Below, piece by piece: positions 1-14,486 of a DNA stretch of 16,313 bases. Source of the DNA: Promethearchaeia archaeon (GTDB taxonomy: Archaea > Asgardarchaeota > Lokiarchaeia > Sigyniarchaeales > SOKP01); contig JAWOFX010000184.1 in assembly GCA_046497275.1 (NCBI GenBank), forward strand, positions 1 through 16,313, given 5' to 3'. A model generated the notes under the pieces. It saw nothing but the letters and a program-made list of their open reading frames with translations, had not been told where the DNA came from and searched no databases. The position numbers and the translations under genes were made by a program. How positions within the stretch are numbered: position 1 is the stretch's first letter; each line of letters begins with the position of its first letter.

Positions 1-591
1 CTTGAAAAATATCCACGGAATCTCATTAATAATTTAAGGAAGAAATCGATAACATACAAATTCGATCACTGGCTCAAAGAAGGCATAATTCTGAATATTA
101 TGAAATTGAATGAGATCAGATATTTCAGAAGACCTCTATTTAGAAAGTGTACTCCTTCAGCTAATCATGATCATATCAATTTAAACTATAAACAGATTGA
201 CATAATCTATGAGGAACTTGTTAAATACATGTCCAAAAATCAAAATAAATTGCCATTCTATTTTTGTTATGCAAATAAAAGTAAGGAATATTGCGAACGA
301 TTAGCAAATAATGTATATAAAAAGCTTTCTGATCTCCTCTGGGAAACCTATTTTCCCTCATTTGATCATAGTTTCTATGACCATGGTTGTTTCGTGTTAA
401 TGAGTCAAGCTACTCCTCGCAAGCGAATATATACCATGGAACTTGAATCTAAAAAACATTTTTATGATATCTTTGCTGAAATAGAAAAATCCAAAAAAAT
501 TTCTGATTATTATGAAAATCAACTAAAGGATATCAATAAAGGATTAAAATTAGTAAAACAATCAATACTCCAAATGATTACACAATTTTAA
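1..591 (+). CDS. Hypothetical protein, probably 5'-truncated by the window edge
   Basis: Frame 1 has no stop from position 1 to the ATG at 100 (LEKYPRNLINNLRKKSITYKFDHWLKEGIILNI-MKLNE...), so the gene likely starts before the window. No recognisable motif. Its stop overlaps the stop of the convergent gene at 588-591. Confidence 0.65.
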   Translation, partial: LEKYPRNLINNLRKKSITYKFDHWLKEGIILNIMKLNEIRYFRRPLFRKCTPSANHDHINLNYKQIDIIYEELVKYMSKNQNKLPFYFCYANKSKEYCERLANNVYKKLSDLLWETYFPSFDHSFYDHGCFVLMSQATPRKRIYTMELESKKHFYDIFAEIEKSKKISDYYENQLKDINKGLKLVKQSILQMITQF

Positions 592-1583
592 TTATCAAGA
601 AATCTCAAAATACCTCCGACTAAGGCAACTTCATTCTTCTTCATAGTATGTCCACCTTTCTTAAAAATTAACTGATTTTTCTCGGGTAACTCCAATATTG
701 AACAATTCTCTTTAAAATTATTAAATTTTATAACTCTATCATTCTTAGCATGAATTAAATATATTCTCTCTGAAAGTTTTTTATATTCTTCTTTTGATAA
801 TGTTTTCTTCTGATTTTCAAATATATTATAAGGAGAGAGCATTTCTGACTTTTCTTTATCAGGAAATAATGAGATCCCTCTTAAAATATAACTGAACAAT
901 ATTATTGGATTCAAGCGTAACAAATTTTTTTTATAATGAGATATACAAGAAATTGCAATAATTTTTTTCACGTTTAAGTCGTTAAAGCTTCCCGAGATAG
1001 AAATAATACCACCAATACTAAATCCAATTGAATAGATTTGATATTTGTGATATTTTTTATGTGATTTTATCCATTGAATTATTTTTTGATAGTCTTCAAT
1101 TCTTTTTTGGAAATGATATCGTTTCCCCAATTTTCTGGAGTCACCAGTTCCTCGAGCATCATAAATCAAGATTGTGTAACCTTGCATGGCTAAGGGAAGA
1201 TAAAGATATTCTAAAGTCTGTTTTGTATCTGAATATCCATGATTAATTATGATAAAAGTATCTTTCTTACTCTCGGTTAAATCATGAGATTTAATAATAT
1301 TAATAGTAATGTTTTTATCTTTGTCCTTGCTTTCAAGGGGAATTCTAACTTTCTTTTTTATTATTCCTTCGAGATCAAGATCAGACCATCTTTCATACCA
1401 AATATTTCTCACGGAAAAATAAGTTTCAAATGGTGTGTAGACGATAAAGAAGAGACATGTTGAAATTATCAAACATCTTTCTAAGGGATTATTGAAAATA
1501 TTACAATTAATATGCCAAATAGAGGCACTAATTAAAATCCCAACAATTATAACAATTATACGCTTTATAACTTCTTTAAGCAT
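588..1583 (-). CDS. Alpha/beta hydrolase (serine esterase/lipase-like) with N-terminal hydrophobic anchor
   Basis: Oxyanion motif INHGY, YDARGTGDS, nucleophile elbow GFSIGG, acid HAKND, catalytic His in KGGH. Two hydrophobic segments in the first ~55 aa. Confidence 0.88.
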   Translation of the reverse strand: MLKEVIKRIIVIIVGILISASIWHINCNIFNNPLERCLIISTCLFFIVYTPFETYFSVRNIWYERWSDLDLEGIIKKKVRIPLESKDKDKNITINIIKSHDLTESKKDTFIIINHGYSDTKQTLEYLYLPLAMQGYTILIYDARGTGDSRKLGKRYHFQKRIEDYQKIIQWIKSHKKYHKYQIYSIGFSIGGIISISGSFNDLNVKKIIAISCISHYKKNLLRLNPIILFSYILRGISLFPDKEKSEMLSPYNIFENQKKTLSKEEYKKLSERIYLIHAKNDRVIKFNNFKENCSILELPEKNQLIFKKGGHTMKKNEVALVGGILRFLDN

Positions 1584-1739: not shown

Positions 1740-2042
1740 TTATTTATCTGCCTTCGGGCATCCAAAATCTCTAGCAACTTGACAACCTGGTTTGGTTGAT
1801 AAACCTTTACAAGGATCACATTTTAACTTACGAAGCATTTTCTCTACTTCGTCAACTTCAGGACCAAACTCCTCTTCTTCCGTTTCGTCAGCAAGCATTT
1901 CATCTTCGATTGCATTTAAATCTTCTATCTCATCCTCATCGAGATTATCATCCCATTCATCTAAATCTAATATTTCCTCTCCATCCTCGTCTTTTTTACC
2001 ATGTGGGATTTCCTCTTCATCCACTTTCTTTTTTTTTGCCAT
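1740..2042 (-). CDS. Small hyperacidic protein with C-terminal Cys4 motif (C-x2-C-x8-C-x7-C), function unknown
   Basis: ATG preceded by an SD-like AGGAGA. 33 of residues 8-67 are D/E. Cys at 75, 78, 87 and 95. The two + strand ORFs over it look like antisense shadows. Confidence 0.8.
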   Translation of the reverse strand: MAKKKKVDEEEIPHGKKDEDGEEILDLDEWDDNLDEDEIEDLNAIEDEMLADETEEEEFGPEVDEVEKMLRKLKCDPCKGLSTKPGCQVARDFGCPKADK

Positions 2043-2050
2043 TGAATTAT

Positions 2051-2056
2051 TCTCCT
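2051..2056 (-). promoter_or_regulatory. Putative Shine-Dalgarno site (AGGAGA) for 1740..2042
   Basis: Minus strand reads AGGAGA-ATAATTCA-ATG, an 8 nt spacing. Confidence 0.55.
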
Positions 2057-2134
2057 TTTTTTTTGATAATTAATATTTGATGGTGAAAAATGATTATTAA
2101 AATTTAGATTTTTCGAGTGAATATTGTTTTTACA

Positions 2135-2143
2135 TATATAAAA
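2135..2143 (-). promoter_or_regulatory. Putative archaeal TATA box (TTTTATATA) upstream of 1740..2042
   Basis: Matches the TTTA(T/A)A consensus in the intergenic gap. Weak evidence in AT-rich DNA. Confidence 0.35.
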
Positions 2144-2180
2144 GCTTTAAATAACTGATTCTTTGATTAATGAATATAAT

Positions 2181-3470
2181 TTATGCATCCTCTAATTCAA
2201 TGATATCTTTTAATTCTTGATAAGCTTTACAGTCCAGAAGATCTTCTTTTGTACAGTCATCAATCATCCAACATCTATATTCATGATTCAAATATGCCTT
2301 ACATTGCTCTTTCTCCGGGCAATCTTTGATTTGCCAGCATTGAAATGTTTTATCTTCATAAAAGTGGTGGAACTTCTTCGGAAGTTTCTTATAATTAAAA
2401 TCTGTTTCTCTGAGATATTTATCTAAGTTATTTGAATTATAGGTATTCCAGAAAAGTACAGTTTTAGCTTTATTTTCTTCTTTTTTAAGATAATCAATCA
2501 TAGCAGCCATAGTTTTTCCCGTGTAAGTGGTTTCTATTCTAAATCCTTTGGGCTTACCTTCCAATTCCATAATCAAATCGATTGCTTTCTGTCCGCGTTC
2601 AGTTTTTGTACCATATTCAGATCCTAAGTAGCCTTCTATTATTTCAAAATCTTCCTCTCCTAATTTTATGTCAGGGATCGATTCATCACGCTTCTTTAAA
2701 TATTTTAAAGCTTTATTAGCATTTTTCAAGACATTTTCGTTATTTATAATCCAATCCATACTCACTGCGGTTATATATACTTTAGTCTTCAGTCTTAAGA
2801 GTTTGCAGCCAAGTATTAGTCCTGCTGCCGTTCCGCCTGAACCACCCGCCACAAAAATCGCATCGGGTTCTGGTATATCTTTTTTTTCAATTTGTTCTTT
2901 TAATTCAAAGATCGCATTCACGAATCCGATGGTTCCAATTGGTGAGCCCAACCCAAACAATAAACTTCCACCAGGAAACATAAGATGATGGTTTAGATGA
3001 GCCAGCTTGAAGCCAAGCACTTTCAATGCTAATTTTGTAAAATTTTTACTTAAATGAAGGTTTGCTCCAAAATAATCGTAAAGTAATAATGAGCGTTGGA
3101 CGTGCCACGTTAACGGTTGAGGAAATAAAAAAAGATGGCATCGCATATCTAATTGTTGCGCGATGATTGCACATGCCAAGGCATGATTAGATCCTATTCC
3201 TCCTATGGTAATCATTCCTTTTTTATTATTTTTGACTGCCTTCCCAAAAATGAATTCGAACTTTCTAAGCTTATTTCCCCCATAGACATGATGACATTTA
3301 TCATCCCTTTTAATATAGACTCGCCCTTCTGATTCCATGCCAATTTCCTCTTCAAGATTTTCTAATCGGTCAATTGGAGTCGGTATTTGACTTAATAAGG
3401 AAATCCATGGAACTTCTTGTTGTAGATTGGGATATGCTTTAAAAATAAGTGGTCTTTCTCTTTCAACCAT
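2181..3470 (-). CDS. PLP-dependent enzyme, D-cysteine desulfhydrase / ACC deaminase family (fold type II), with a C-terminal Cys-rich extension
   Basis: YIKRDD, GGNKLRK (PLP lysine), GGIGSNHA, phosphate loop GGSGGTAAG, ETTYTGK. The Thr in YTGK, rather than the Glu of ACC deaminase YEGK, favours a DcyD-like activity. Confidence 0.9.
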   Translation of the reverse strand: MVERERPLIFKAYPNLQQEVPWISLLSQIPTPIDRLENLEEEIGMESEGRVYIKRDDKCHHVYGGNKLRKFEFIFGKAVKNNKKGMITIGGIGSNHALACAIIAQQLDMRCHLFLFPQPLTWHVQRSLLLYDYFGANLHLSKNFTKLALKVLGFKLAHLNHHLMFPGGSLLFGLGSPIGTIGFVNAIFELKEQIEKKDIPEPDAIFVAGGSGGTAAGLILGCKLLRLKTKVYITAVSMDWIINNENVLKNANKALKYLKKRDESIPDIKLGEEDFEIIEGYLGSEYGTKTERGQKAIDLIMELEGKPKGFRIETTYTGKTMAAMIDYLKKEENKAKTVLFWNTYNSNNLDKYLRETDFNYKKLPKKFHHFYEDKTFQCWQIKDCPEKEQCKAYLNHEYRCWMIDDCTKEDLLDCKAYQELKDIIELEDA

Positions 3471-3564: not shown

Positions 3565-4527
3565 TCAAGACATCCCGATGTCGGATTCTATCATTCTAGT
3601 AATAGCAATATCAAAGAAGTTCTTGAAACTGTTCAAATAATATTGTATCACATTTTTTATATGACATTTGGTTTGATCTGTTCCAAATTCAGTGTTCTCA
3701 AGCTGATCTTGGAGTTCGATCATATAATTCTGAAATTCAGAAATAGATTCTAAATTAATATTATTATAATTCTCTATGAGAGCGTTTAAAAGATCCGGAA
3801 CCTTTAATAAGAGATCAGAGTAGTTTGAAATAATTTGATCAGGTATTCCTTGAAGATTGATGAGTGCTTCATTAATAAAATCCCGAACATAGAGAAGGAC
3901 AACACGATCACCCAAGAAACGTATTATTGGAAATTTATTTCTTGAGACAGGATATTCAGCAAGTCCAGTCACCAGAATTCTTGTACCTAATGAATATTTT
4001 CTATCTATCTCGTCTAATAGTAAATCACTGATTTTATCTTGCTCACTTTTTACTATATTTCTGATGATGGTTTCGAAGACATTAACAAGATCAACCAAAA
4101 CTTCATGAAATGTTGTTTTAGAAGCATCTAAAAGAAAATTAATATAAAATTCATTAGTATTTGGCACATCCTTAAAATCAATACCTATTATTTCACGTCT
4201 AAGTTCAATAAGGAGTTCATATAATTTCTCTTTATTGGAAGTTTTATACTTTAGATAAATATAATCTACATTTAATTTAAACGCAGAAATGATTGCTTGC
4301 CGTACTAATTTAATTGGCATTTGGTCACTATTAATTCTATATACTATTTTTTCCTCACTTTTTTCTTGAACACGAACGACGAGAGTTTTTTTATCAACTG
4401 GATAAAGAGTAATTTCTGATTTTTCCTGCAAATCTGCTTCTTTAGTCCATTCTTGTGGAAATGTAATCGCTTTAGAGTTTCCTAATTTAATTATACTACG
4501 TTTATATTTATTCTTAATATTAGTCAT
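3565..4527 (-). CDS. phoU: Archaeal AbrB/SpoVT-PhoU family regulator (phosphate uptake regulator-like)
   Basis: N-terminal AbrB-like RSIIKLGNSKAITFPQEW, then QAIISAFKLNVDYI and PhoU-like helical segments (DEIDRKYSL..R.L; RFLGDR). Confidence 0.75.
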   Translation of the reverse strand: MTNIKNKYKRSIIKLGNSKAITFPQEWTKEADLQEKSEITLYPVDKKTLVVRVQEKSEEKIVYRINSDQMPIKLVRQAIISAFKLNVDYIYLKYKTSNKEKLYELLIELRREIIGIDFKDVPNTNEFYINFLLDASKTTFHEVLVDLVNVFETIIRNIVKSEQDKISDLLLDEIDRKYSLGTRILVTGLAEYPVSRNKFPIIRFLGDRVVLLYVRDFINEALINLQGIPDQIISNYSDLLLKVPDLLNALIENYNNINLESISEFQNYMIELQDQLENTEFGTDQTKCHIKNVIQYYLNSFKNFFDIAITRMIESDIGMS

Positions 4528-4644: not shown

Positions 4645-6615
4645 TTAAAAGTTATAATTTTTAAGGTTGTTAATCTCATTTTTTAGTATTTTATTATTTT
4701 CTAGTTTCTTATTGATCGATTTTATCTGAGAGTATATTGAGAGAATATCGGTATCTGAAAAAACACTGAACTTTGGGAGATCAAAATAGCGTTTAGAAAA
4801 TTTAAAATTTATATCTGGGAAAATATTTTTTGAGAAGAGCAATCGTAAAAGTTCTGGAAATTTTTTCTCAATATTATAATCTAACTTCGATAGATAAAGA
4901 ATCTGGATTAGAGATTCGCATAAAGATTGAAGGAAAGTGATATTTTGATTAAGAATATAGGGTGAAATAACCTCTTGCATACTGAGTGATTCTAAAGAAT
5001 CATATTCATATTGAATAAGGATTTGTAAGATCTTTCCAATAGATCCCAAGGAGGAGGGAAGATACTCTGGGATAGGCAATTTTTTGATAAAACTGCCATT
5101 AAATCTAAGATATCCGCCAGACATATGAAGTGTTTCATATAAATTCTTAAATAAAGTATCTAAGAATTGAGAATTCAAGATACTAAGAAGAGAGAATAAT
5201 TCATTATTGTTTAAAGAAGGGATTTTAATGAAATATAATCCAGTTATATTAGTAAACACCCCGGGATCATAGACGCAAGTTAAATCTTTAGCAATTTCTC
5301 TAAAGATAATCTTTTCAGAGGAAAGGGTTTCATTCAGAGAATTATTGTCAGGAAAATGAAAATATGATACGTTTAAATTGTGATTGGCAATTTTTATTTT
5401 TTTGCGAAATCGAAAATGATATTTACCTAAATTGCCAGTACCAAGCAATATTAAATCTTGTTCGGAAATTTTTATTGCATTAGCAAATTTATAATATTTT
5501 TTATAATTTGTAAAGGCATATGGGCGATAGATTACATTTAACTCCGGAAAGGCCTTTTCTAAGGAGGAAAAATTAGAAAATATTTGATTAATGAAGTTTA
5601 AGTTACCTTTTAAAGGTATGATCACTTCTGGTAGTGATAATAATTGATTTTGAAGTATTTTTTGGCTTTTTTTCTTTTCTTTTTTTAATAGATCTTTTAA
5701 AGTATTATATTCCTCAATTAAAATCTCATGTCTTTCATTATTAGGTTGATTTTGTAAAGATATAATGATAGGATATGCCGAATGTTTCGAAAAGACGGGT
5801 AAAGAAGAGATATTTATTATTTGTAGAATGCGGGTATCCTCCAATAAAATCTTTCTTATTTTTATTCCATAATTTGATGCTAAAAATTTATTTGTAATAA
5901 TAAAGGAAATGATACCAGAATTCGAAGTTAAAATTTTTAATGATTTTTCTAAAAAGAGAATAGAGAGATCAAATAATTTATATGCCGATTTGAAGGTATT
6001 ATAAAGCTGAGTTTTATAAAATCTATCCGAAATCTTTTTATTCTCAACGTAGGGAGGATTTCCAATAATAATATCAAACTTTTTTTTAGGTAAATAATCT
6101 AAAAGATAATCATTAATAAATAAATTAAATTTGATTTTTGCCTCTCCCAGTTTAGAATTTAAATTATCTATATCCTTTATTTTATCTTCATCAAATTTAT
6201 TTAATATACCAGAATACTCTCCTTGTTCTTTTAGAAACCATAAAAATAATCGTAATTTAGTTATAGTGACCGCATCTTTCTCTAAATCAATTCCATGCAG
6301 ATTATTTTCAATTATTTGACGTTTTAACTGTGATTTTTTAGAGTTAGGAAATAAAATCTTATAAATCTTATATAAAAAATCTGCCGTAATCGCTAAAAAC
6401 CTTCCAGATCCGCAAGAGGGGTCTAAAATTCTTATATCTCGTAATTTTTGTCTAACAGACAACCGGAGATTTTGGTCCTTTGTTAATCTCGTGAGAGATA
6501 TAAAGAATTTTTCTTTGTTAGAAGATTCTAAATCCAAATTAAAATTGATTTTTAAATATTTGCTGATTGTTTCCCGAATTATATATTCAATAATATTTAT
6601 TGGTGTATAGATCAC
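4645..6615 (-). CDS. N6-adenine DNA methyltransferase (TaqI/Eco57I-like, gamma-type motif order) with C-terminal target-recognition region; true start probably upstream of 6615
   Basis: Motif I ILDPSCGSGRFL, motif IV FDIIIGNPPY, TaqI_C-like KIIFREIAK. The YGVIYTP motif straddles the annotated GTG. The frame stays open back to the TAA at 6757-6759. Confidence 0.88.
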   Translation of the reverse strand: MIYTPINIIEYIIRETISKYLKINFNLDLESSNKEKFFISLTRLTKDQNLRLSVRQKLRDIRILDPSCGSGRFLAITADFLYKIYKILFPNSKKSQLKRQIIENNLHGIDLEKDAVTITKLRLFLWFLKEQGEYSGILNKFDEDKIKDIDNLNSKLGEAKIKFNLFINDYLLDYLPKKKFDIIIGNPPYVENKKISDRFYKTQLYNTFKSAYKLFDLSILFLEKSLKILTSNSGIISFIITNKFLASNYGIKIRKILLEDTRILQIINISSLPVFSKHSAYPIIISLQNQPNNERHEILIEEYNTLKDLLKKEKKKSQKILQNQLLSLPEVIIPLKGNLNFINQIFSNFSSLEKAFPELNVIYRPYAFTNYKKYYKFANAIKISEQDLILLGTGNLGKYHFRFRKKIKIANHNLNVSYFHFPDNNSLNETLSSEKIIFREIAKDLTCVYDPGVFTNITGLYFIKIPSLNNNELFSLLSILNSQFLDTLFKNLYETLHMSGGYLRFNGSFIKKLPIPEYLPSSLGSIGKILQILIQYEYDSLESLSMQEVISPYILNQNITFLQSLCESLIQILYLSKLDYNIEKKFPELLRLLFSKNIFPDINFKFSKRYFDLPKFSVFSDTDILSIYSQIKSINKKLENNKILKNEINNLKNYNF

Positions 6616-6860
6616 TCCATATGTCTTTTGGGCAGATTCATCTTGAAATTTCTGATATTCAAATATTTTTATACATTGGTTTAATAGTTCTAAGGTATGA
6701 AGACTTTTCTCGCGAATAGTTAATCCCTTATTCTCATGGTTTTTTCTGAATTTAATTTAGATTCTTCTTCCTAATAAAGATGAGCTTTTAAGAATTTTAG
6801 AACGATAATCAAAAATTTAATAAATATACATTAAACAAATGATAGTAGAGCTGTTTAAGA

Positions 6861-7757
6861 ATGATTGAGGAATCTTTTCTTAAGAAAATAATCAAATCAC
6901 CTGAAAAAGTTTCCAGATTTAAGTTTGATAAAGTTTCTGAAATATTAAAAGAAGCAAAAGAAATTTTTTCTAATGAAAAGCTTTTATTAGAATTGAATGC
7001 TAAAAACGATGAAGAAATTTTCGTTATTGGAGATATTCATGGAAATCTAGACTCTCTAAAAAAAATTTATAATATAATTAAAGAAAAAAATCCAAAATAT
7101 GTAATTTTTCTGGGTGATATTGTTGATCGTGGTTCATATCAAATTGAATGCTTTAGTTTTGTCTTAAGTTTGAAGATTTTATTTCCAAATAAGTATTATT
7201 TACTACGTGGAAATCATGAAACACTTCAAATGAATAAATATTATGGGTTTTATGATGATTTTGATATGAGATTTGGAAGTGAGGGAGATTTTACTGAAAT
7301 TATTCAATTATATAATGTTTTACCTATATGTACCATAATAAATAATTCTATATTATGTTTACACGGAGGTATTCCAGAAAATAATAATATTTTGAATGAA
7401 ATCAAAGATTTAAAACATCAAGAATTGCCCTACACGCCTTCTGGTCCGATTGAGGAAGGGATTTTTCAGCTCCTTTGGAATGACCCTAAGGAAGGCCTTT
7501 CGGGTTTTATGCATAGTTTTAGAGGAGGAGATATAAAATTTTTTGGAGAGGAAGTTTTTGAGATTTTTATGAATAAATATAATTTAAAATATCTTATTCG
7601 TGCCCATGAAGTTTTTCCCATGGGTTATAAGTGGTTTTTTGACCATAGACTTTTATCAGTTTTTTCTTCTTCTGATTATAGAGGAGCAGGAAGTAATTAT
7701 GGAGCCTATGCAAGAGTTAAAGGAGAGGAAATATTTGCAGAAACAATAGAAGATTAA
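6861..7757 (+). CDS. PPP-family Ser/Thr protein phosphatase (PP1/PP2A-like catalytic domain)
   Basis: GDIHG, [27 protein letters not shown], RAHE and VFSSSDY (SAPNY equivalent), all in the correct order. Confidence 0.92.
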   Translation: [298 protein letters not shown]

Positions 7758-7794
7758 ACGTTAAAAAATTGAAATTTAGAATTTATTTAAAAAA

Positions 7795-8217
7795 TTATTC
7801 TAATTCGGGAAATTTCCTTATAATATCTGGATGCTTTCGAATCTCTTGTTTCCATCTGTCATTTTTATCTATTGCAAGAGTTAAGTTTTCTCGCTCGATA
7901 GTTTGATCGGTTGGTACATAAATAAATGCTTCTTTTTTAGTTCCATCCTTTAATTTTATCACAGTTTTTGTTCGTTTATACAAACCAGAAGGAACGCCTT
8001 CATAATTATCTAACTGTATTAATTCTTTTCTAGATACGTCAAATTTTAGCGCCCAAAAAGAAGAATCTGGATCAGGAATAACATAAGGAAACCAATTACC
8101 TTCTGGGAAAATCCTTCTAAATCCAATAACTCCACATACTTTTACATTTGATTTGTCTTTCCAGTATCCTCGTGTAATAAAAGTACCATAACCGACAACA
8201 GAAAATCTCTCTGACAT
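7795..8217 (-). CDS. Gamma-glutamylcyclotransferase (GGCT/AIG2-like) family protein
   Basis: N-terminal VVGYGTF (YGS/TL motif), LDNYEG..GLYKR with the putative catalytic Glu, AFIYV. Confidence 0.8.
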   Translation of the reverse strand: MSERFSVVGYGTFITRGYWKDKSNVKVCGVIGFRRIFPEGNWFPYVIPDPDSSFWALKFDVSRKELIQLDNYEGVPSGLYKRTKTVIKLKDGTKKEAFIYVPTDQTIERENLTLAIDKNDRWKQEIRKHPDIIRKFPELE

Positions 8218-8261
8218 CTTAGATATCTCTAATTAGTCTTAGGAATTATAAATATGATCTT

Positions 8262-8269
8262 TATATAAA
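8262..8269 (-). promoter_or_regulatory. Putative TATA box (TTTATATA) for the GGCT gene
   Basis: Consensus archaeal TATA ~45 nt upstream of the ATG at 8217. Confidence 0.4.
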
Positions 8270-8300
8270 TGAAATAGAACCAAGTGTATAGTTGCTTATA

Positions 8301-8555
8301 TTACATTATTTCCGAAGCATCAGGTTTTATGAAGAGGAGATTATTGCCCCTGATAAAAATCTCACTATATTTAGCAACTGGACTTCCATCAAGGATTTCT
8401 GTTGCATCTTCGAGAATCATATTCATATAAGCATCTATTTCTTTTAGAAGACCTCTATATTCAGTTCCGTCTTTTAAACGCAACAATATCTCAGAATTTT
8501 GAGCATTCTGAAGTATTGTTAAGGGATTTTTAGATCTATCTTGCTGTTTAGACAT
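8301..8555 (-). CDS. Sm/LSm-like archaeal protein (SmAP)
   Basis: N-terminal helix PLTIL, Sm1 motif LRLKDGTEYRGLLKEIDAYMNMILEDA, Sm2 motif IFIRGNNLLFI. Confidence 0.95.
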   Translation of the reverse strand: MSKQQDRSKNPLTILQNAQNSEILLRLKDGTEYRGLLKEIDAYMNMILEDATEILDGSPVAKYSEIFIRGNNLLFIKPDASEIM

Positions 8556-8650
8556 ACTATTTTAAACCTTCAATAAAAAAATTTGTTAAAGTTATTTAAT
8601 GCTATTAAAATTTAATAGAATTAAAATTTATTGGTCATTATATATTCAAG

Positions 8651-9241
8651 ATGGATAATTTAAACAAAAAGAAAAAAATCAAAGGAAAATATAATTCTAC
8701 TTCTTACTTTTATGATGAAAGATATAAAGAGATTCAATTTGAAAAATACCAAAGAATTATTAAAAGAAAGGATTTAAAAAATAGGACTATTTTAGATGCA
8801 GGATGCGGGACTGGTCTCATTTCAGAATTTTTCCAAGAAGAGTATGATGTAATTGATCAAAGTAATTTTAAATATGTTGGTGTAGATCTCTCTATTGAGA
8901 TGATTAATATCTTTAAGAAAAAGCTTGGAAAGGTATACAGAAAAGCTTTGGGATTTTTTAATCTCATTTTAGCTGATCTAGAGAACTTACCTTTCAGAGT
9001 AGACAGTTTTAATCTCTTAATTTCTATTACATCCTATCAAAATTTGCCAGATGTGAAGAGAGGGGTAAAAGAATCTTTAAGAACTTTGAGAGAAAAATCA
9101 TTTATAATTATTTCAATATTAAAAAAGAAATTAGATAAAGAAACTTTGATTTCCTTATTGGAGGATGAAATCGAGATTATTAAATTTATAAATGATAATA
9201 AGCTTGAGGACTTTCTCATAAGTGGAAGAAAAATCAATTAG
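8651..9241 (+). CDS. Class I SAM-dependent methyltransferase
   Basis: Motif I ILDAGCGTG, VGVDLS..M, ADLENLPF..DSFNLLIS. Confidence 0.9.
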   Translation: MDNLNKKKKIKGKYNSTSYFYDERYKEIQFEKYQRIIKRKDLKNRTILDAGCGTGLISEFFQEEYDVIDQSNFKYVGVDLSIEMINIFKKKLGKVYRKALGFFNLILADLENLPFRVDSFNLLISITSYQNLPDVKRGVKESLRTLREKSFIIISILKKKLDKETLISLLEDEIEIIKFINDNKLEDFLISGRKIN

Positions 9242-10231: not shown

Positions 10232-11023
10232 TTATTTAGAAATAAAAATATATCTTTTATAGGTTTTATAAAAATTATATAATTTGTAAAGATTTGGTAC
10301 TATCACTATTAAAAGTTCGATTAAATTTAAGATTATAAATATATCGAAGTCAGTTTTTAATATTAAAAATAATTCTTCGGTTGATCCCTCTTGATGAATA
10401 AATAGAAAAATTCCCTGGTTTATATAAACTAAAATTCCTATATCAATAATCAATCCTAATAAAGAAAATATGAAGATCCCAAGATCTCTTTCAAAAGCAC
10501 TTATAATAATATTTAATGTAAAAATGATAAGGGTTGTTATGGTTAAAATTCTATAAATGTTTAGGTATAAAAAGTATGAACTAGAAGAGATGAAGTAGGT
10601 ATCCCCAATAGAAGGAGTATAAAGTAATGAAAGAATTAAAAATATCGATGAAAATTTTAAAATAGAAATAATAATTAAAAATAGAAACGATAATTTGATT
10701 GTGAAGAATCTGCTGTATTTTAATTTACCCATCTCTTTATTTTCTTTTGTAATTTTTAACATGGAATCAATTTCTGTCTTTACTAATAGAGGGAAATCTT
10801 CTTCTTTTTCAAAAATTTTCCAAGTCTCCTCAGAATAATTTGATATTATCGTGAACAATTTTTCCTTAGCGTTTTTCAGCTTATTTTTTTTAATTTCAGG
10901 TCCAGTCCAAATATAAATAATCTTTTTAGTACTATCAATTACAACACAGATATCATGAAAAAGCAGGATTTGTTCCTCTTCAATCCACCTATTCTCTTCA
11001 TTAAAAATAAAAGTTCGAAGCAT
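10232..11023 (-). CDS. Membrane protein: N-terminal gelsolin-like domain (aa ~1-90) plus about four transmembrane helices
   Basis: LLFHDICVVIDSTKKIIYIWTGPE resembles the gelsolin-repeat core (L-x3-D-x-h-h-h-D-x4/5-IYhW-x-G) followed by a long helix. Hydrophobic segments at aa ~109-135, ~155-177, ~181-209 and ~226-246. The CDS itself is high confidence; the domain call is moderate. Confidence 0.62.
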   Translation of the reverse strand: MLRTFIFNEENRWIEEEQILLFHDICVVIDSTKKIIYIWTGPEIKKNKLKNAKEKLFTIISNYSEETWKIFEKEEDFPLLVKTEIDSMLKITKENKEMGKLKYSRFFTIKLSFLFLIIISILKFSSIFLILSLLYTPSIGDTYFISSSSYFLYLNIYRILTITTLIIFTLNIIISAFERDLGIFIFSLLGLIIDIGILVYINQGIFLFIHQEGSTEELFLILKTDFDIFIILNLIELLIVIVPNLYKLYNFYKTYKRYIFISK

Positions 11024-11201: not shown

Positions 11202-12095
11202 TCATTTTATTCTATTTTTTATCTCTTTCCATAGATCTTGAATATATATTTCATATTCTTTTATGATTTCGTCTGTAATTCCTGAAAACCTCTTCTGGGA
11301 TTTAAGATATTGTTCTATTGGAGTTCTTTTTTCCGGATCTATATATTTTTTACTCGTTTTTGAAAGATTAAATTTGCCGTGTTCAACTTCATAGAGAGGC
11401 CAGAACCCAGTTTCAACTGCTAATCGTCCAATTTTTATGGTATCTTTTGGATCATATCCCCAACCAGGAGGACATGGTGCTAAAATATGGAGATATTTTG
11501 TTCCCTCAATTGAATGTGCTTTTTGAAATTTTTCATAAATATCAAGAGGATAGGCTGCACAAGCAGTTGCCACATACGGAATCCCATGTGCCTCTAAAAT
11601 TTTTGGCATATTTTTTTTATGACCGAGTTTCCCATCTGGAGTTGTTGTACTGAAAGCTCCCAATGGAGTAGATCCACTTCTCTGGACGCCTGTGTTCATA
11701 TATGCTTCATTATCATAACATGCATAGATAAAATTTGTCCCACGTTCTGCAGCACCGCTTAACGCTTGAATACCAATATCAGTGGTTCCTCCATCACCCG
11801 CAAAAGCAACCGTACAGATTTCTTTATCCAATCCTTTATCTTCCAAAGATGCCACTATACCAGAGGCAGATGCACCAGTTGTAGCGAACGGAGTATGGAG
11901 TACTGAGAGTTTAGTCGAGCAAAATCCTTGCATTCCATGAAGAACTGTAAGGCACGAAGCTGGTACTGTAAGAATTGTTTTAGGACCTAAAGCTTTTAAA
12001 GCGATTCTATATATTAAAGCCATCCCACACCCTGCACAAGCTCGTGTTCCTGGATAAATGAACTCTTCTTCTCTAAGATCCATTATATTAACCAT
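11202..12095 (-). CDS. porB: 2-oxoacid:ferredoxin oxidoreductase beta subunit (TPP-binding, POR type)
   Basis: CAGCG, TPP motif GDGG...DNEAYMNTGVQRS, APCPPGW. The start overlaps the porA stop (TAATG). Confidence 0.93.
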   Translation of the reverse strand: MVNIMDLREEEFIYPGTRACAGCGMALIYRIALKALGPKTILTVPASCLTVLHGMQGFCSTKLSVLHTPFATTGASASGIVASLEDKGLDKEICTVAFAGDGGTTDIGIQALSGAAERGTNFIYACYDNEAYMNTGVQRSGSTPLGAFSTTTPDGKLGHKKNMPKILEAHGIPYVATACAAYPLDIYEKFQKAHSIEGTKYLHILAPCPPGWGYDPKDTIKIGRLAVETGFWPLYEVEHGKFNLSKTSKKYIDPEKRTPIEQYLKSQKRFSGITDEIIKEYEIYIQDLWKEIKNRIK

Positions 12096-13375
12096 TATTT
12101 ATCTTCACCTCCTTTTAGAAAATCTAACTCATCCAATTTTAATCCAATAAATTCTGTTTTACTTGAAATTTCATTATTTTCAGCATATTTAAGTCCCTTT
12201 TTTACACCGTGGATAATCTGATCATCATTAACATCCCTTCCTCCTAAACCTATTATAAAACCTTTAATAAATGGTGGATTTTTAAGGCCATACAAACTAG
12301 CTTTTAATTCATATGATAAGACTCCTTCATGTCCATACCCTATATCTCTGTCGAAAACTATGACATTTTTGAATTTTTTAAACAGGTTTCGTAATTCGGT
12401 GGCAGGAAAGGGTCTAAAAAGCTTTAAACTTACAAGTCCAATATTCATACCTTCTTTTCTCAATTTATCAATTGCGCTTCTTGATTGTGATGCTACAGAT
12501 CCCATAGCAAATATAACTGTATCAGCATCATTAGTCATATGGGTTTTATAGATGCCATTACCGTAGGATCTTCCAAATGTATTAGCAAAATCATCATGAA
12601 CTTCTCTTATGATATTTATAGAATTTTCGAGAGCCTTTTGTAACGAATATCTATATTCATAATACCCTGGGGCAGTACCTTCGTCTCTTTTTACAATATG
12701 GGGAGTAGTTACCGGATCCACTCCCTTGATTTGACTAAGATCTGATAAATTAATATGATGTTGTAATGGAGGTAAAAAATTATCGATTGTTTCTTGAGGT
12801 TCTAAAGTTATTGGCATCATGGTATGACTTAGTATATATCCGTCATAACCTACAATAGCAGGAATAAAAACTCGGGGATCCTCTGCAATTTTAAATGCTT
12901 GAATATTTGTGTCATATATTTCTTGATTATCTTCGCAGAACATTTGAATCCACCCAACATCTCGCACGGTTATAAAATCTTGATGATCAGTCCATACACT
13001 CCATGGAGCTCCGAGAGCCCTCGTTGCTAAGTTAATTACTATTGGCAAGCGGTTTCCAGAAGCCCAAGGGAGCATCTCATACATTAGTTCTAAGCCATGA
13101 GCAGAAGTTGCTGTGCATACCCTAGATCCAGTAGCTGAAGCCGCGCAACACACAGCAAGAGCAGAATGTTCTGATTCAACTTTCACGAATCTCGCTTTCA
13201 TTTTTCCCTTAGAAATGAAATCAGAAATTTTTTCAACCACTGGACTTTGAGGGGTTATAGGATAAGCTGAAATAACCTCCACGTTAGCTTGCCGAAATGC
13301 ATGAGCTGCTGCATGATTTCCGGTGACTATTTTGGTGATTTTTTTGGTATTATTTGATTCAATAGATTGAGTCAT
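12095..13375 (-). CDS. porA: 2-oxoacid:ferredoxin oxidoreductase alpha subunit
   Basis: YPITPQS, ESEHSA, TATSAHG, DGYILSH, GLGGRD. Substrate specificity cannot be read from the sequence. Confidence 0.93.
   Translation of the reverse strand: MTQSIESNNTKKITKIVTGNHAAAHAFRQANVEVISAYPITPQSPVVEKISDFISKGKMKARFVKVESEHSALAVCCAASATGSRVCTATSAHGLELMYEMLPWASGNRLPIVINLATRALGAPWSVWTDHQDFITVRDVGWIQMFCEDNQEIYDTNIQAFKIAEDPRVFIPAIVGYDGYILSHTMMPITLEPQETIDNFLPPLQHHINLSDLSQIKGVDPVTTPHIVKRDEGTAPGYYEYRYSLQKALENSINIIREVHDDFANTFGRSYGNGIYKTHMTNDADTVIFAMGSVASQSRSAIDKLRKEGMNIGLVSLKLFRPFPATELRNLFKKFKNVIVFDRDIGYGHEGVLSYELKASLYGLKNPPFIKGFIIGLGGRDVNDDQIIHGVKKGLKYAENNEISSKTEFIGLKLDELDFLKGGEDK
12105..12112 (-). promoter_or_regulatory. 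Shine-Dalgarno GGAGGTGA for porB, inside the 3' end of porA
   Basis: Full archaeal SD consensus, 9 nt before the ATG at 12095. Confidence 0.75.
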
Positions 13376-13672
13376 TTACTCTTTCACCTCCTCCATAGTG
13401 ATAGCACCTACAGGACATTCTTCCATACAAATCCCACATCCTTTACAGTAAGTGAAATCAATTTTAGGGGGAATAGTTCTGGTAATCACTGCTTCAGGAC
13501 AATATAGCCAACAATTAAAACATGCGAACTTTCCAGATTTTGCGGGAATACACACTTCTAAATTTATTATGGGTTTTAAAGGAGACCATGTACCTGTTTT
13601 GCCAGCTTCTCCGATAACCGGTTTCTGAATTGATGATAAAATCTTCTGATAATCTTTTTTGGAATCATTCAT
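13376..13672 (-). CDS. porD: 2-oxoacid:ferredoxin oxidoreductase delta subunit (2x[4Fe-4S] ferredoxin-like)
   Basis: KTGTW...P, first motif C-x9-C-x2-C-x3-CP, second motif YCKGCGICMEECP. Abuts the porA start. Confidence 0.9.
   Translation of the reverse strand: MNDSKKDYQKILSSIQKPVIGEAGKTGTWSPLKPIINLEVCIPAKSGKFACFNCWLYCPEAVITRTIPPKIDFTYCKGCGICMEECPVGAITMEEVKE
13384..13391 (-). promoter_or_regulatory. Shine-Dalgarno GGAGGTGA for porA, inside the 3' end of porD
   Basis: Full archaeal SD consensus, 8 nt before the ATG at 13375. Confidence 0.75.
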
Positions 13673-13715
13673 ATTGATCGAATTTTTCTTATATTACTAT
13701 AATAAGGAGAGAAAA

Positions 13716-13723
13716 ATATAAAA
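13716..13723 (-). promoter_or_regulatory. Putative internal TATA box (TTTTATAT) upstream of porD
   Basis: Lies ~44 nt upstream of the porD ATG in the 220-nt porG-porD gap. porD has no SD. Confidence 0.3.
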
Positions 13724-13892
13724 TTCTTACAATTTACAAAGATAAGTATCATCAAAATTGTTTAAAAACGTATATTTTTTATAAAATTCCTTAATAAAAG
13801 TCAATTGAAAAACTTCTCGACTTTTTAATATTTTTTTAAAGAATTAAAACAGAATATAGAAAACCAAAATGGCTTTATAAATAAGTAAAAGA

Positions 13893-14486
13893 TTAAATAA
13901 TTTTGGCTAAATTATAACCTTTTTCCATCAATCTATTGTTTAATTGACTCAATTTCGGATTCATACGATTATTTATAATTTTTTTCAGATTCTCCAAGCT
14001 CAAATCTGGAAGAGCTTTTGCTAACAATCCTAAGATTGGTGTGTTAATTATTGGATTTCCATCAATGATAAGATTATTTTCCATTGACAATTTATTGATA
14101 TCTGCGACAATAATTTTTGTAGTATCGCTTAGAGAATAATTCATTTTAAAGAAATCAGGATTTTTATCTGAATTTGCAATAAAAATTCCATCTTTTTTAA
14201 GGGAAGAGGCAATATCTGTAGTGAGCACGCTTTCATCAAAAACGATTAGAATGTCTGGATTTGCGATAGCCGAACGATCCCAAATTTTTTTGGTTTTTGA
14301 TAATTTGGCATATGCTTGAATTGGCGCACCTCTACGTTCTGCACCAAAACTTGGAAAAGCCACAACATCCATAAAATTTCCGCTCATATATGCAGCTTCA
14401 ACTATAATTTGAGAAGCGGTAACAGCCCCTTGACCACCTCGACCATGTATTACAATTTTAATTATTTCGCTTTCCTTATTTGTCAT
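13893..14486 (-). CDS. porG: 2-oxoacid:ferredoxin oxidoreductase gamma subunit
   Basis: IHGRGGQGAVTA, FPSFGAERRGAPI, PDILIVFD, PIINTPILG. Confidence 0.93.
   Translation of the reverse strand: MTNKESEIIKIVIHGRGGQGAVTASQIIVEAAYMSGNFMDVVAFPSFGAERRGAPIQAYAKLSKTKKIWDRSAIANPDILIVFDESVLTTDIASSLKKDGIFIANSDKNPDFFKMNYSLSDTTKIIVADINKLSMENNLIIDGNPIINTPILGLLAKALPDLSLENLKKIINNRMNPKLSQLNNRLMEKGYNLAKII

What the first reader, a model, noticed from the sequence alone, without database searches (positions are those of the whole stretch)
10232..11023. Candidate membrane-anchored gelsolin: gelsolin-like domain fused to a four-TM bundle
Seen: aa 1-90 read RTFIF...IEEE..LLFHDICVVID...IIYIWTGPE, then a long amphipathic helix, then KIFEKEEDFP. 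A basic linker (KENKEMGKLKYSR) follows, then four hydrophobic segments and a basic tail (YKTYKR), so the positive-inside rule puts both termini in the cytoplasm. Established: gelsolin repeats have the core L-x3-D-hhh-D-x-IYhWxG plus a long helix, and Asgard archaea encode soluble one- and two-domain gelsolins that regulate actin. Inference: this is an integral membrane actin-binding protein that could tether or nucleate filaments at the membrane, relevant to the actin-filled protrusions of Lokiarchaeia. I do not know a characterised gelsolin-TM fusion. The Glu nine residues after the conserved Trp, which I recall as a Ca2+ ligand in gelsolin domains, is Lys48 here, suggesting Ca2+-independent behaviour or a degenerate domain.
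Basis: partly seen in the sequence, partly recalled or inferred. Interest (0 to 1): 0.8.

Follow-up and report, generated by a model that had tools for sequence, protein, structure and literature searches.

The report
Membrane-anchored gelsolin-domain protein of Lokiarchaeia
This gene encodes a conserved Asgard-archaeal membrane protein whose cytoplasmic head is a genuine gelsolin-type (actin-regulator) domain fused to four membrane-spanning helices, which makes it a testable but still untested candidate for how these relatives of eukaryotes attach actin to the cell membrane.

Summary
The ORF at 10232-11023 (-) is real.

**Gelsolin domain (residues 1-97), shown:**
- A 40-sequence family profile hits only gelsolin-family chains in the PDB (villin 1.4e-14, gelsolin 3e-12, Thor ProGel and Loki 2DGel 2e-5).
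- The AlphaFold model's best Foldseek match is Thor ProGel bound to actin (7c2f_B). VIA-align gives Z 9.0 over 84 of its 88 residues.
- The gelsolin D/W/G signature is kept (D24, W39, G41).
- The type-II Ca2+ glutamate at Trp+9 is Lys/Arg in 26 of 40 family members and Glu in only 2.

**Membrane domain (residues 104-258), predicted with high confidence:**
- It forms a four-helix membrane bundle (pLDDT 95) with no recognisable family.
- Charge distribution across 39 homologues places both termini in the cytoplasm.

**Distribution:** mostly single-copy and found in 113 of 134 genomes of its family. It is confined to one order, which includes Ca. Lokiarchaeum ossiferum (UYP46179.1, "hypothetical").

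I found no paper describing this architecture. This scan has already reported the same family at least 7 times on other genomes.

**Verdict:** a new architectural variant of a known domain family, with a plausible role as a membrane-actin linker. Interest is moderate to high.

The parts
10232..11023 (-). Whole gene (263 codons plus stop), here called GelTM
   Evidence: conserved full-length in homologues
10733..11023 (-). Gelsolin-homology domain, aa 1-97. Order of elements: strands 2-7, 13-15, 25-30, 35-40; long helix 46-63; strand 69-71; helix 79-97
   Evidence: AF2 model; profile against PDB; Foldseek and VIA; invariant D24 and G41, W39 in 38/40
10709..10732 (-). Short basic juxtamembrane linker, aa 98-105 (MGKLKYSR). 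L101, K102 and S104 are nearly invariant in the close family
10619..10708 (-). TM helix 1, aa 106-135
10490..10585 (-). TM helix 2, aa 147-178, preceded by a short outer beta strand (aa 142-146)
10418..10483 (-). TM helix 3, aa 181-202 (G196 and Y200 highly conserved)
10358..10417 (-). Extracytoplasmic loop 3, aa 203-222 (NQGIFLF..QEGST..LI). This is the best conserved part of the membrane domain (G204, L207, F208, Y/F219, I221)
10286..10357 (-). TM helix 4, aa 223-246
10235..10285 (-). Basic cytoplasmic tail, aa 247-263. Family mean is 4.0 Lys+Arg. Some homologues carry long Lys/Glu-rich extensions

Best explanation
GelTM is an integral membrane protein with four membrane helices and both ends in the cytoplasm. 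Its first ~97 residues form a single gelsolin-homology domain, held within a few residues of the inner membrane face by an 8-residue basic linker.

Shown: the gelsolin homology and fold; the four conserved hydrophobic helices; the positive-inside charge pattern; conservation as a mostly single-copy gene across one order of Asgard archaea.

Inferred: like the soluble Asgard gelsolins (ProGel, 1DGelX, 2DGel), the head binds lokiactin. It would therefore either fasten filaments to the membrane or regulate them locally by capping or nucleation.

Because the type-II Ca2+ glutamate is replaced by Lys/Arg in this clade, any such activity is probably not Ca2+-switched, as is also reported for ProGel and 1DGelX.

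The membrane module is more than a passive anchor. Its most conserved residues lie at the outer end of TM3 and in the outer loop, which suggests a conserved outside-facing contact.
For: **Gelsolin homology**
- The 12-sequence profile hits villin at 2.1e-7 and gelsolin at 8.5e-6.
- The 40-sequence profile hits villin at 1.4e-14, gelsolin at 3e-12, and Thor ProGel 7c2f_B and Loki 2DGel 7whg_G at about 2e-5. All top 35 hits are gelsolin family.
- hhalign against this genome's own 2DGel gives E 1.3e-5.

**Fold**
- The AF2 model has pLDDT 81.
- Top Foldseek hit is ProGel/actin 7c2f_B (E 5.9e-5, TM 0.65 normalised by target). All 50 listed hits are entries containing a gelsolin-family protein.
- VIA gives Z 9.0, rmsd 3.0 A, 84 of 88 residues of ProGel.

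**Signature**
- D24 40/40, G41 40/40, W39 38/40. This matches the 'DWG motif' named by Akil et al. 2020 (PMC7444086).

**Membrane part**
- AF2 pLDDT 95.4, pTM 0.88, four long helices.
- Four hydropathy peaks are conserved across 39 sequences.
- Mean Lys+Arg is 2.1 before TM1 and 4.0 in the tail, against 0.41 and 0.49 in the two outer loops.
- There is no N-terminal hydrophobic signal.

**Conservation**
- f1 113/134, f3 12/14, f4 3/4, f2 1/1 genomes. Outside the order there are only 4 weak or partial matches.
- Orthologues exist in Ca. L. ossiferum (UYP46179.1) and Ca. Harpocratesius repetitus.

**Cellular context**
- The same genome encodes two lokiactins and at least five soluble gelsolin-domain proteins.

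**Expression hint**
- Contigs 100% identical to the gene occur in salt-lake metatranscriptome libraries of two studies.
Against: - Nothing here tests actin binding.
- The exposed positions of the long helix, which inserts into actin in gelsolin G1 (from memory), are variable: column entropy is 2.4-3.5 bits.
- A single-sequence Pfam scan does not reach PF00626. Only 3 of 12 members hit it, best E 0.007. The Pfam model also misses the gene in a whole-genome scan.
- The L. ossiferum orthologue is not among the five gelsolin-homology proteins enriched in the lokiactin co-IP. The authors note, however, that their co-IP under-represents membrane proteins.
- Gelsolin-like folds without known actin binding exist; Sec23a is named in Akil 2020.
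- RNA-library contigs cannot prove transcription.
Confidence: 0.55

Rival explanations
1. The gelsolin-fold head has a partner other than actin, or acts as a regulatory or plug domain. The conserved four-helix module with its conserved outer loop is the working part, for example a small channel, receptor or scaffold. The protein would then have no direct cytoskeletal role.
For: - The most conserved residues of the membrane domain are at the outer face (G196, Y200, G204, L207, F208, Y219, I221). That is unexpected for a mere anchor.
- The exposed helix face of the head is variable.
- A gelsolin-like domain without known actin binding exists (Sec23a).
- A related head is fused to a different membrane module (an EamA-like permease) in one genome.
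Against: - Profile and fold searches return only actin-binding gelsolin-family proteins. No Sec23/24 appears at E<=1 or among the top 50 Foldseek hits.
- The membrane module matches no channel or transporter family. Pfam finds nothing. The best Foldseek PDB hit has E 0.22. VIA hits are generic helical bundles.
Confidence: 0.3
2. The head is mainly a lipid-facing or membrane-shaping module. Its very basic helix start and linker bind anionic lipids, and the protein shapes or marks membrane domains independently of actin.
For: - Lys/Arg are the commonest residues at positions 43, 45-48, 50 and 51 and in the linker.
- The LKY-type juxtamembrane motif recalls, from memory only, the PIP2-binding stretch at the end of gelsolin G1.
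Against: - A basic juxtamembrane region is expected for any N-in membrane protein (positive-inside rule).
- The LKY motif is conserved only in the close family, not in the L. ossiferum-type members.
Confidence: 0.1
3. Spurious or decaying ORF in AT-rich DNA.
For: The window has 25% G+C around the gene, where long ORFs and hydrophobic runs arise easily.
Against: - Full-length conservation down to about 20% identity, with preserved length and motifs.
- Mostly single-copy presence in more than 130 genomes.
- High-confidence structure predictions.
Confidence: 0.01

Closest known systems
Thorarchaeota ProGel (PDB 7c2f chain B; Akil et al. 2020, PMC7444086)
   Same: - Single gelsolin/cofilin-type domain of about 90 residues from an Asgard archaeon.
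- Best structural match: Foldseek E 5.9e-5; VIA Z 9.0 over 84/88 residues.
- The paper's Fig. 1 legend implies ProGel lacks the type-II Ca2+ site; GelTM lacks its Glu ligand.
   Different: - ProGel is a free soluble protein; GelTM carries a 160-residue four-helix membrane module and a basic tail.
- Sequence identity is only about 18-19%.
- ProGel's actin binding is shown by crystal structure and assays; GelTM's is untested.
Asgard 1DGelX / GelX-type proteins (Thor 1DGelX; L. ossiferum B35_GelX)
   Same: One gelsolin domain followed by a non-gelsolin C-terminal module. 1DGelX activity is Ca2+-independent. This genome has several such soluble proteins.
   Different: Domain X is a soluble coiled-coil or disordered region, whereas GelTM has a membrane bundle. 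hhalign to this genome's GelX-like ORF is weak (E 8.8e-5, 40 columns).
Eukaryotic gelsolin/villin/adseverin/CapG repeats (e.g. 9jus, 1d0n, 5a1k, 1j72)
   Same: Best profile hits (1.4e-14 to 1e-6), the same fold (Z 8-9), and the D...W.G core.
   Different: The eukaryotic proteins have three to six tandem repeats, are soluble or peripheral, and are Ca2+-switched with Glu at Trp+9. GelTM has one repeat, is integral to the membrane, and has Lys at Trp+9.
Eukaryotic membrane-actin linkers (ERM proteins, talin/vinculin-integrin)
   Same: Functional analogy only: they couple cortical actin to the membrane. This comparison is inference, not homology.
   Different: The folds are unrelated. Those linkers are peripheral adaptors that bind separate membrane proteins, whereas GelTM would combine actin-binding head and membrane span in one chain.
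Cornichon (CNIH) and connexin four-helix membrane proteins
   Same: Four membrane helices with short outer strands. VIA gives Z 11.5 over 137/141 residues of CNIH. Connexin is the top but non-significant Foldseek hit (E 0.22).
   Different: These scores lie in the range the tool describes as common for helical bundles. There is no sequence signal. From memory, the termini of CNIH face the opposite side. I do not treat this as homology.

Membership tests
Gelsolin-homology domain superfamily | Significant sequence-profile similarity to gelsolin repeats | tested here: met
   The family profile against PDB hits villin at 1.4e-14 and gelsolin at 3e-12. All top 35 hits are gelsolin family. The earlier 12-sequence profile gave 2.1e-7.
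Gelsolin-homology domain superfamily | Pfam PF00626 above the gathering score for the protein itself | tested here: not met
   No PF00626 hit for P0001 at E<=1. Three of 12 members hit it, best E 0.007 and below the cut-off. The PF00626 genome scan misses the locus. This reflects divergence: the family is outside the reach of the current Pfam model, not outside the superfamily.
Gelsolin-homology domain superfamily | Fold: central beta sheet packed between a long helix and a shorter C-terminal helix, in the canonical order | tested here: met
   AF2 element order is strand-strand-strand-strand-long helix-strand-helix. The Foldseek top 50 are all entries containing a gelsolin-family protein. VIA gives Z 8-9 over about 90 residues.
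Gelsolin-homology domain superfamily | D...W.G core signature ('DWG motif' of Akil 2020) | tested here: met
   D24 40/40, W39 38/40, G41 40/40. The motif is named in PMC7444086.
Ca2+-regulated gelsolin repeats (type-II site) | Asp in the core strand plus Glu nine residues after the conserved Trp | tested here: not met
   The Asp is present (D24). Position 48 is K 15, R 11, L 5, A 2 and E only 2 of 40. Glu is present in this genome's 2DGel and in the L. ossiferum orthologue; Asp is present in Harpocratesius.
Actin-binding gelsolins (functional class) | Binds G- or F-actin | not testable with these tools
No biochemical data exist for this family in the papers searched.
Polytopic integral membrane protein, N-in/C-in | Four hydrophobic helices long enough to span the membrane, and positive-inside charge bias | tested here: met
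   KD peaks of 2.2-2.5 in four conserved blocks. AF2 helices are 21-38 residues long at pLDDT 95. Lys+Arg is 2.1 and 4.0 on the inside against 0.41 and 0.49 on the outside. No dedicated TM predictor was available.
Known four-helix membrane families (cornichon, connexin, others) | Specific structural or sequence match of the membrane module | tested here: inconclusive
   Pfam finds nothing. Best Foldseek PDB hit has E 0.22. VIA-wide top hits are designed helical bundles, Z 15.8. CNIH scores Z 11.5. The atlas best hit is an unnamed bacterial cluster, TM 0.63/0.75.

The most novel reading that the evidence does not exclude
GelTM is the direct transmembrane attachment and nucleation point of lokiactin filaments. 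Its conserved outer loop senses a surface or partner cell, so that one small protein would do what integrin plus talin do in eukaryotes: couple outside contact to actin-driven protrusion and crawling in Lokiarchaeia.
Probability: 0.15. Interest if true: 0.9.

Novelty: new variant of a known kind. Interest (0 to 1): 0.62.

Why it matters
Cultured Lokiarchaeia have actin-filled protrusions and crawl (PMC9834061; preprint 10.1101/2025.11.30.690169). The known Asgard actin regulators (profilins, ProGel, 1DGelX, 2DGel) are all soluble, and no filament-membrane link has been identified.

GelTM is a conserved, mostly single-copy protein in which one gelsolin domain is hard-wired to the membrane. It is present in the culturable Ca. 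L. ossiferum. It therefore gives a concrete gene to test by pull-down after detergent solubilisation, immuno-cryo-ET, and in vitro actin assays.

If the head binds actin, this would be the first integral-membrane member of the gelsolin superfamily, and an example of a membrane-cytoskeleton link that predates eukaryotes. If it does not, it shows that the gelsolin fold was recruited to a non-actin membrane function in Asgard archaea.

Tried and rejected
- **Complex prediction.** I submitted the gelsolin head (alignment A4) with this genome's lokiactin (alignment A3). There is no verdict, and I did not attempt it any other way.
- **Weak Pfam hits.** Single-sequence Pfam gave only weak hits to Phage_tail_terminator_7 (E 0.0038, also in 8/12 members) and MPK1_gelsolin_C (E 0.019), both far below cut-off. 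I rejected the phage hit because every profile and fold search returns gelsolins only.
- **Identity of the membrane module.** Nothing specific came from any search:
  - Pfam found nothing.
  - The protein-atlas feature search found only its own unnamed Promethearchaeota cluster.
  - Foldseek against PDB was non-significant.
  - VIA-wide returned generic bundles.
  - The atlas structure search returned an unnamed bacterial cluster.
- **Synteny as a functional clue.**
  - The order OFOR delta-alpha-beta, then GelTM, then Rio2 kinase is kept in about 66-71 of 72 loci of the close family.
  - It is replaced by TFB, GelTM and a large Eco57I-like protein in L. ossiferum, Harpocratesius and G143. The Rio2/OFOR linkage is therefore family-level synteny, not a functional module.
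- **Expression of the L. ossiferum orthologue.** The preprint's tables use other identifiers and are truncated, so I could not map UYP46179.1 to a row.
- **Possible prior cataloguing as an asCOG.**
  - An orthogroup annotated 'Gelsolin domain' (cog.006527, no Pfam hit) sits next to a TFIIB orthogroup in the table of PMC9834061. No protein identifiers are given.
This is unresolved.
- **Metatranscriptome contigs.** They show presence in RNA libraries only. Stretches without cover (most of Rio2, the methyltransferase) are not evidence.
- **Literature.** Searches for the accession numbers and for gelsolin plus transmembrane or membrane-anchored in Asgard archaea found no description of this architecture.

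Full report
**Observation**

The window holds an ATG-started ORF of 263 codons at 10232-11023 on the minus strand.
- the N-terminal strands (RTFIF, WIEEE);
- the core LLFHDICVVID ... IIYIWTGPE;
- a basic linker at aa 93-105;
- four hydrophobic blocks with Kyte-Doolittle peaks above 2.1;
- a basic tail.

Lys48 lies nine residues after Trp39. The gene sits in 25% G+C DNA. Its neighbours are the beta subunit of a four-subunit 2-oxoacid:ferredoxin oxidoreductase (upstream) and a Rio2 kinase (downstream), all on the same strand.

**It is a real, conserved gene**

- A word-indexed search found 11 close relatives of 228-273 aa. Where sources give a name, it is 'hypothetical' or 'membrane protein of unknown function' from Promethearchaeota MAGs.
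- An exhaustive HMMER search of 1.8 billion cluster representatives found 61 at E<=1e-3, 22 of them at E<=1e-30. Nearly all are full-length matches of 259-321 aa.
- In a six-frame scan of 400 genomes of the phylum, the gene was found in 134:
  - 113 of 134 in the window's own family;
  - 12 of 14, 3 of 4 and 1 of 1 in the three other families of the same order;
  - only 4 weak or partial matches in about 246 genomes of all other families.
- It is single-copy in the window's genome, which is 98.9% complete.
- Two closed genomes of the sister family are Ca. Lokiarchaeum ossiferum (283 aa; UYP46179.1, NEF87_002464, 'hypothetical protein') and Ca. Harpocratesius repetitus (MCF2139422.1). This follows from an exact look-up and matching contig lengths.

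**The head is a gelsolin domain**

*Sequence evidence*
- The single sequence gives only hints: villin at E 0.032 in PDB and no PF00626 hit.
- A profile of 12 family heads hits villin at 2.1e-7 and gelsolin at 8.5e-6.
- A profile of 40 diverse heads hits villin at 1.4e-14, gelsolin at about 3e-12, adseverin, CapG, and the Asgard proteins Thor ProGel (7c2f_B) and Loki 2DGel (7whg_G) at about 2e-5. The first 35 hits contain nothing but gelsolin-family chains.
- hhalign against the canonical 2DGel of the same genome gives E 1.3e-5.

*Structural evidence*
- The AlphaFold model (12-sequence alignment, pLDDT 81) has the canonical element order: four strands, a long helix (46-63), a strand and a C-terminal helix (79-97).
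- Its best Foldseek match is the ProGel/actin crystal structure (E 5.9e-5; TM 0.65 normalised by target). All 50 listed matches are entries containing a gelsolin-family protein.
- VIA-align gives Z 9.0 at 3.0 A over 84 of ProGel's 88 residues, with similar values for gelsolin G2, adseverin and CapG.

*Signature residues*
- Across the 40 heads, D24 and G41 are invariant. W39, W13 and E15 are present in 38 of 40, and P78 in 39 of 40.
- D/W/G is the motif that Akil et al. (2020) use to separate gelsolins from cofilins.

**Ca2+ site**

Horse gelsolin G3 and both domains of this genome's 2DGel have Glu at Trp+9.
- In GelTM that position is Lys. Across the family it is K 15, R 11, L 5, A 2 and E only 2 of 40.
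- The L. ossiferum orthologue has Glu there and the Harpocratesius one has Asp. The site may therefore survive in that sister family.
- For the window's clade, Ca2+-independent behaviour is the likelier reading. Akil et al. report Ca2+-independent severing for 1DGelX, and their Fig. 1 legend implies no single-domain Ca2+-binding gelsolin is known.

**The membrane module**

- Folded alone with 39 homologues, it gives a very confident model (pLDDT 95.4, pTM 0.88). The model has four long antiparallel helices and two short strands on one side.
- Column-averaged hydropathy shows four conserved peaks of 2.2-2.5.
- Mean Lys+Arg is 2.1 just before TM1 and 4.0 in the tail, but only 0.41 and 0.49 in the two loops on the other side. 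Those two loops are net acidic.
- There is no N-terminal signal sequence, so both termini should be cytoplasmic and the head is inside the cell.
- Only about eight residues separate the last helix of the head from TM1. The head must therefore sit directly on the inner membrane face (inference).
- The module matches no family:
  - Pfam finds nothing.
  - The best Foldseek PDB hit has E 0.22, to connexin.
  - VIA hits are generic helical bundles, with cornichon at Z 11.5. This is within the range the tool calls common for bundles.
  - The best atlas hit is an unnamed bacterial cluster.
- Its most conserved residues cluster at the outer end of TM3 and in the outer loop (G196, Y200, G204, L207, F208, Y219, I221). 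This argues that it is more than a passive anchor.

**Context**

- The OFOR-GelTM-Rio2 order is kept in about 66-71 of 72 loci of the close family.
- In L. ossiferum, Harpocratesius and a third closed genome, GelTM instead lies between a TFB gene and a large Eco57I-like protein. I therefore read no function from the Rio2/OFOR neighbours.
- The window's genome also encodes two lokiactins and at least five soluble gelsolin-domain proteins. GelTM is its only gelsolin-like protein with membrane helices.
- Contigs 100% identical to the gene occur in salt-lake metatranscriptome libraries from two studies. This is compatible with expression but does not prove it.

**Mechanism**

*Shown:* a gelsolin-homology head on the cytoplasmic face, fused to a conserved four-helix membrane bundle.

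*Inferred:* the head binds lokiactin and either tethers filaments to the membrane or regulates them locally.

*For the inference*
- Every detectable relative of the head is an actin-binding gelsolin.
- The closest structure is ProGel caught on actin.
- The organisms have an actin cytoskeleton that reaches into membrane protrusions (PMC9834061).

*Against the inference*
- The exposed face of the long helix is variable.
- The L. ossiferum orthologue is not among the five gelsolin-homology proteins enriched in the published lokiactin co-IP. The authors state that the co-IP is biased against membrane proteins.
- Gelsolin-like folds without known actin binding exist (Sec23a).

I put the architecture at about 0.9 and actin binding at about 0.5.

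**Novelty**

- Akil et al. (2020) list three Asgard gelsolin architectures: ProGel, 1DGelX and 2DGel, all soluble.
- The L. ossiferum papers count 'eight gelsolin-like proteins' and analyse five, without mentioning a membrane form.
- Full-text searches for the accession numbers, and for gelsolin with transmembrane or membrane-anchored in Asgard archaea, found nothing.
- An asCOG named 'Gelsolin domain' without a Pfam hit may or may not be this family.
- This scan has already reported the same family at least seven times on other genomes, with the same reading. Those notes agree with my independent tests but are not independent evidence.
- I class it as a new architectural variant of a known domain family.

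Noticed in passing
L119 (G058:C98) 1826-2962 (-): A 378-aa ORF (open frame 430 aa) joins the C-terminal half of a GelTM-type gelsolin head and its linker to a roughly 10-helix EamA/DMT-like permease. A 317-aa EamA paralogue lies directly downstream. It is seen in one genome only, so it may be a real domain swap or a chimeric assembly.
   Followed up: partly
L115 2456-8345, L116 3553-8672, L117 2829-8259; window 588-1583 and 4645-6615: In the L. ossiferum-type family, GelTM is followed by an 830-1050-aa Eco57I-like methyltransferase-like ORF (its start overlaps the GelTM stop in L115 and L117; an 83-nt gap separates them in L116) and, in L115 and L117, a membrane-anchored alpha/beta hydrolase, and is preceded by TFB. 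Homologues of the hydrolase (29% identity, E 6e-48) and of the Eco57I-like protein (weak) also lie 3.6-9 kb downstream of GelTM in the window. This suggests an old conserved neighbourhood of unknown meaning.
   Followed up: partly
L120 (G279) 5808-9129: In a high-G+C member of a third family, the 252-aa GelTM homologue lies 1.3 kb from a 422-aa gelsolin-domain plus coiled-coil (GelX-like) ORF. A ubiquitin-conjugating-enzyme-like ORF sits between them.
   Followed up: no
L099 (DATKTW010000096.1): A contig labelled 'Candidatus Nanopelagicaceae bacterium' carries the complete Asgard gene order OFOR-GelTM-Rio2-methyltransferase. It is almost certainly a mis-binned Asgard contig.
   Followed up: partly
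L005 2938-3549 (+) (own genome, contig C156): A 203-aa seven-helix, rhodopsin-like ORF lies about 320 bp downstream of the best lokiactin gene of the window's genome.
   Followed up: no
window 11202-14486 (-): Four-subunit 2-oxoacid:ferredoxin oxidoreductase: beta 11202-12095, alpha 12095-13375, delta (4Fe-4S) 13376-13672, gamma 13893-14486. Many relatives have about 2.5 kb of extra DNA between delta and gamma.
   Followed up: partly
window 3565-4527 (-): A 320-aa ORF whose only Pfam signal is a weak N-terminal MazE/AbrB-like hit (E 1.8e-4). It is otherwise unannotated and is poorly conserved in the related loci (1 of 72).
   Followed up: no
window 10709-10732 (-), aa 98-105: The juxtamembrane motif G-K-L-K-Y-S-R resembles, from memory only, the G-L-K-Y-K-K stretch at the end of human gelsolin G1 that is implicated in PIP2 binding. 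It is conserved only in the close family.
   Followed up: no
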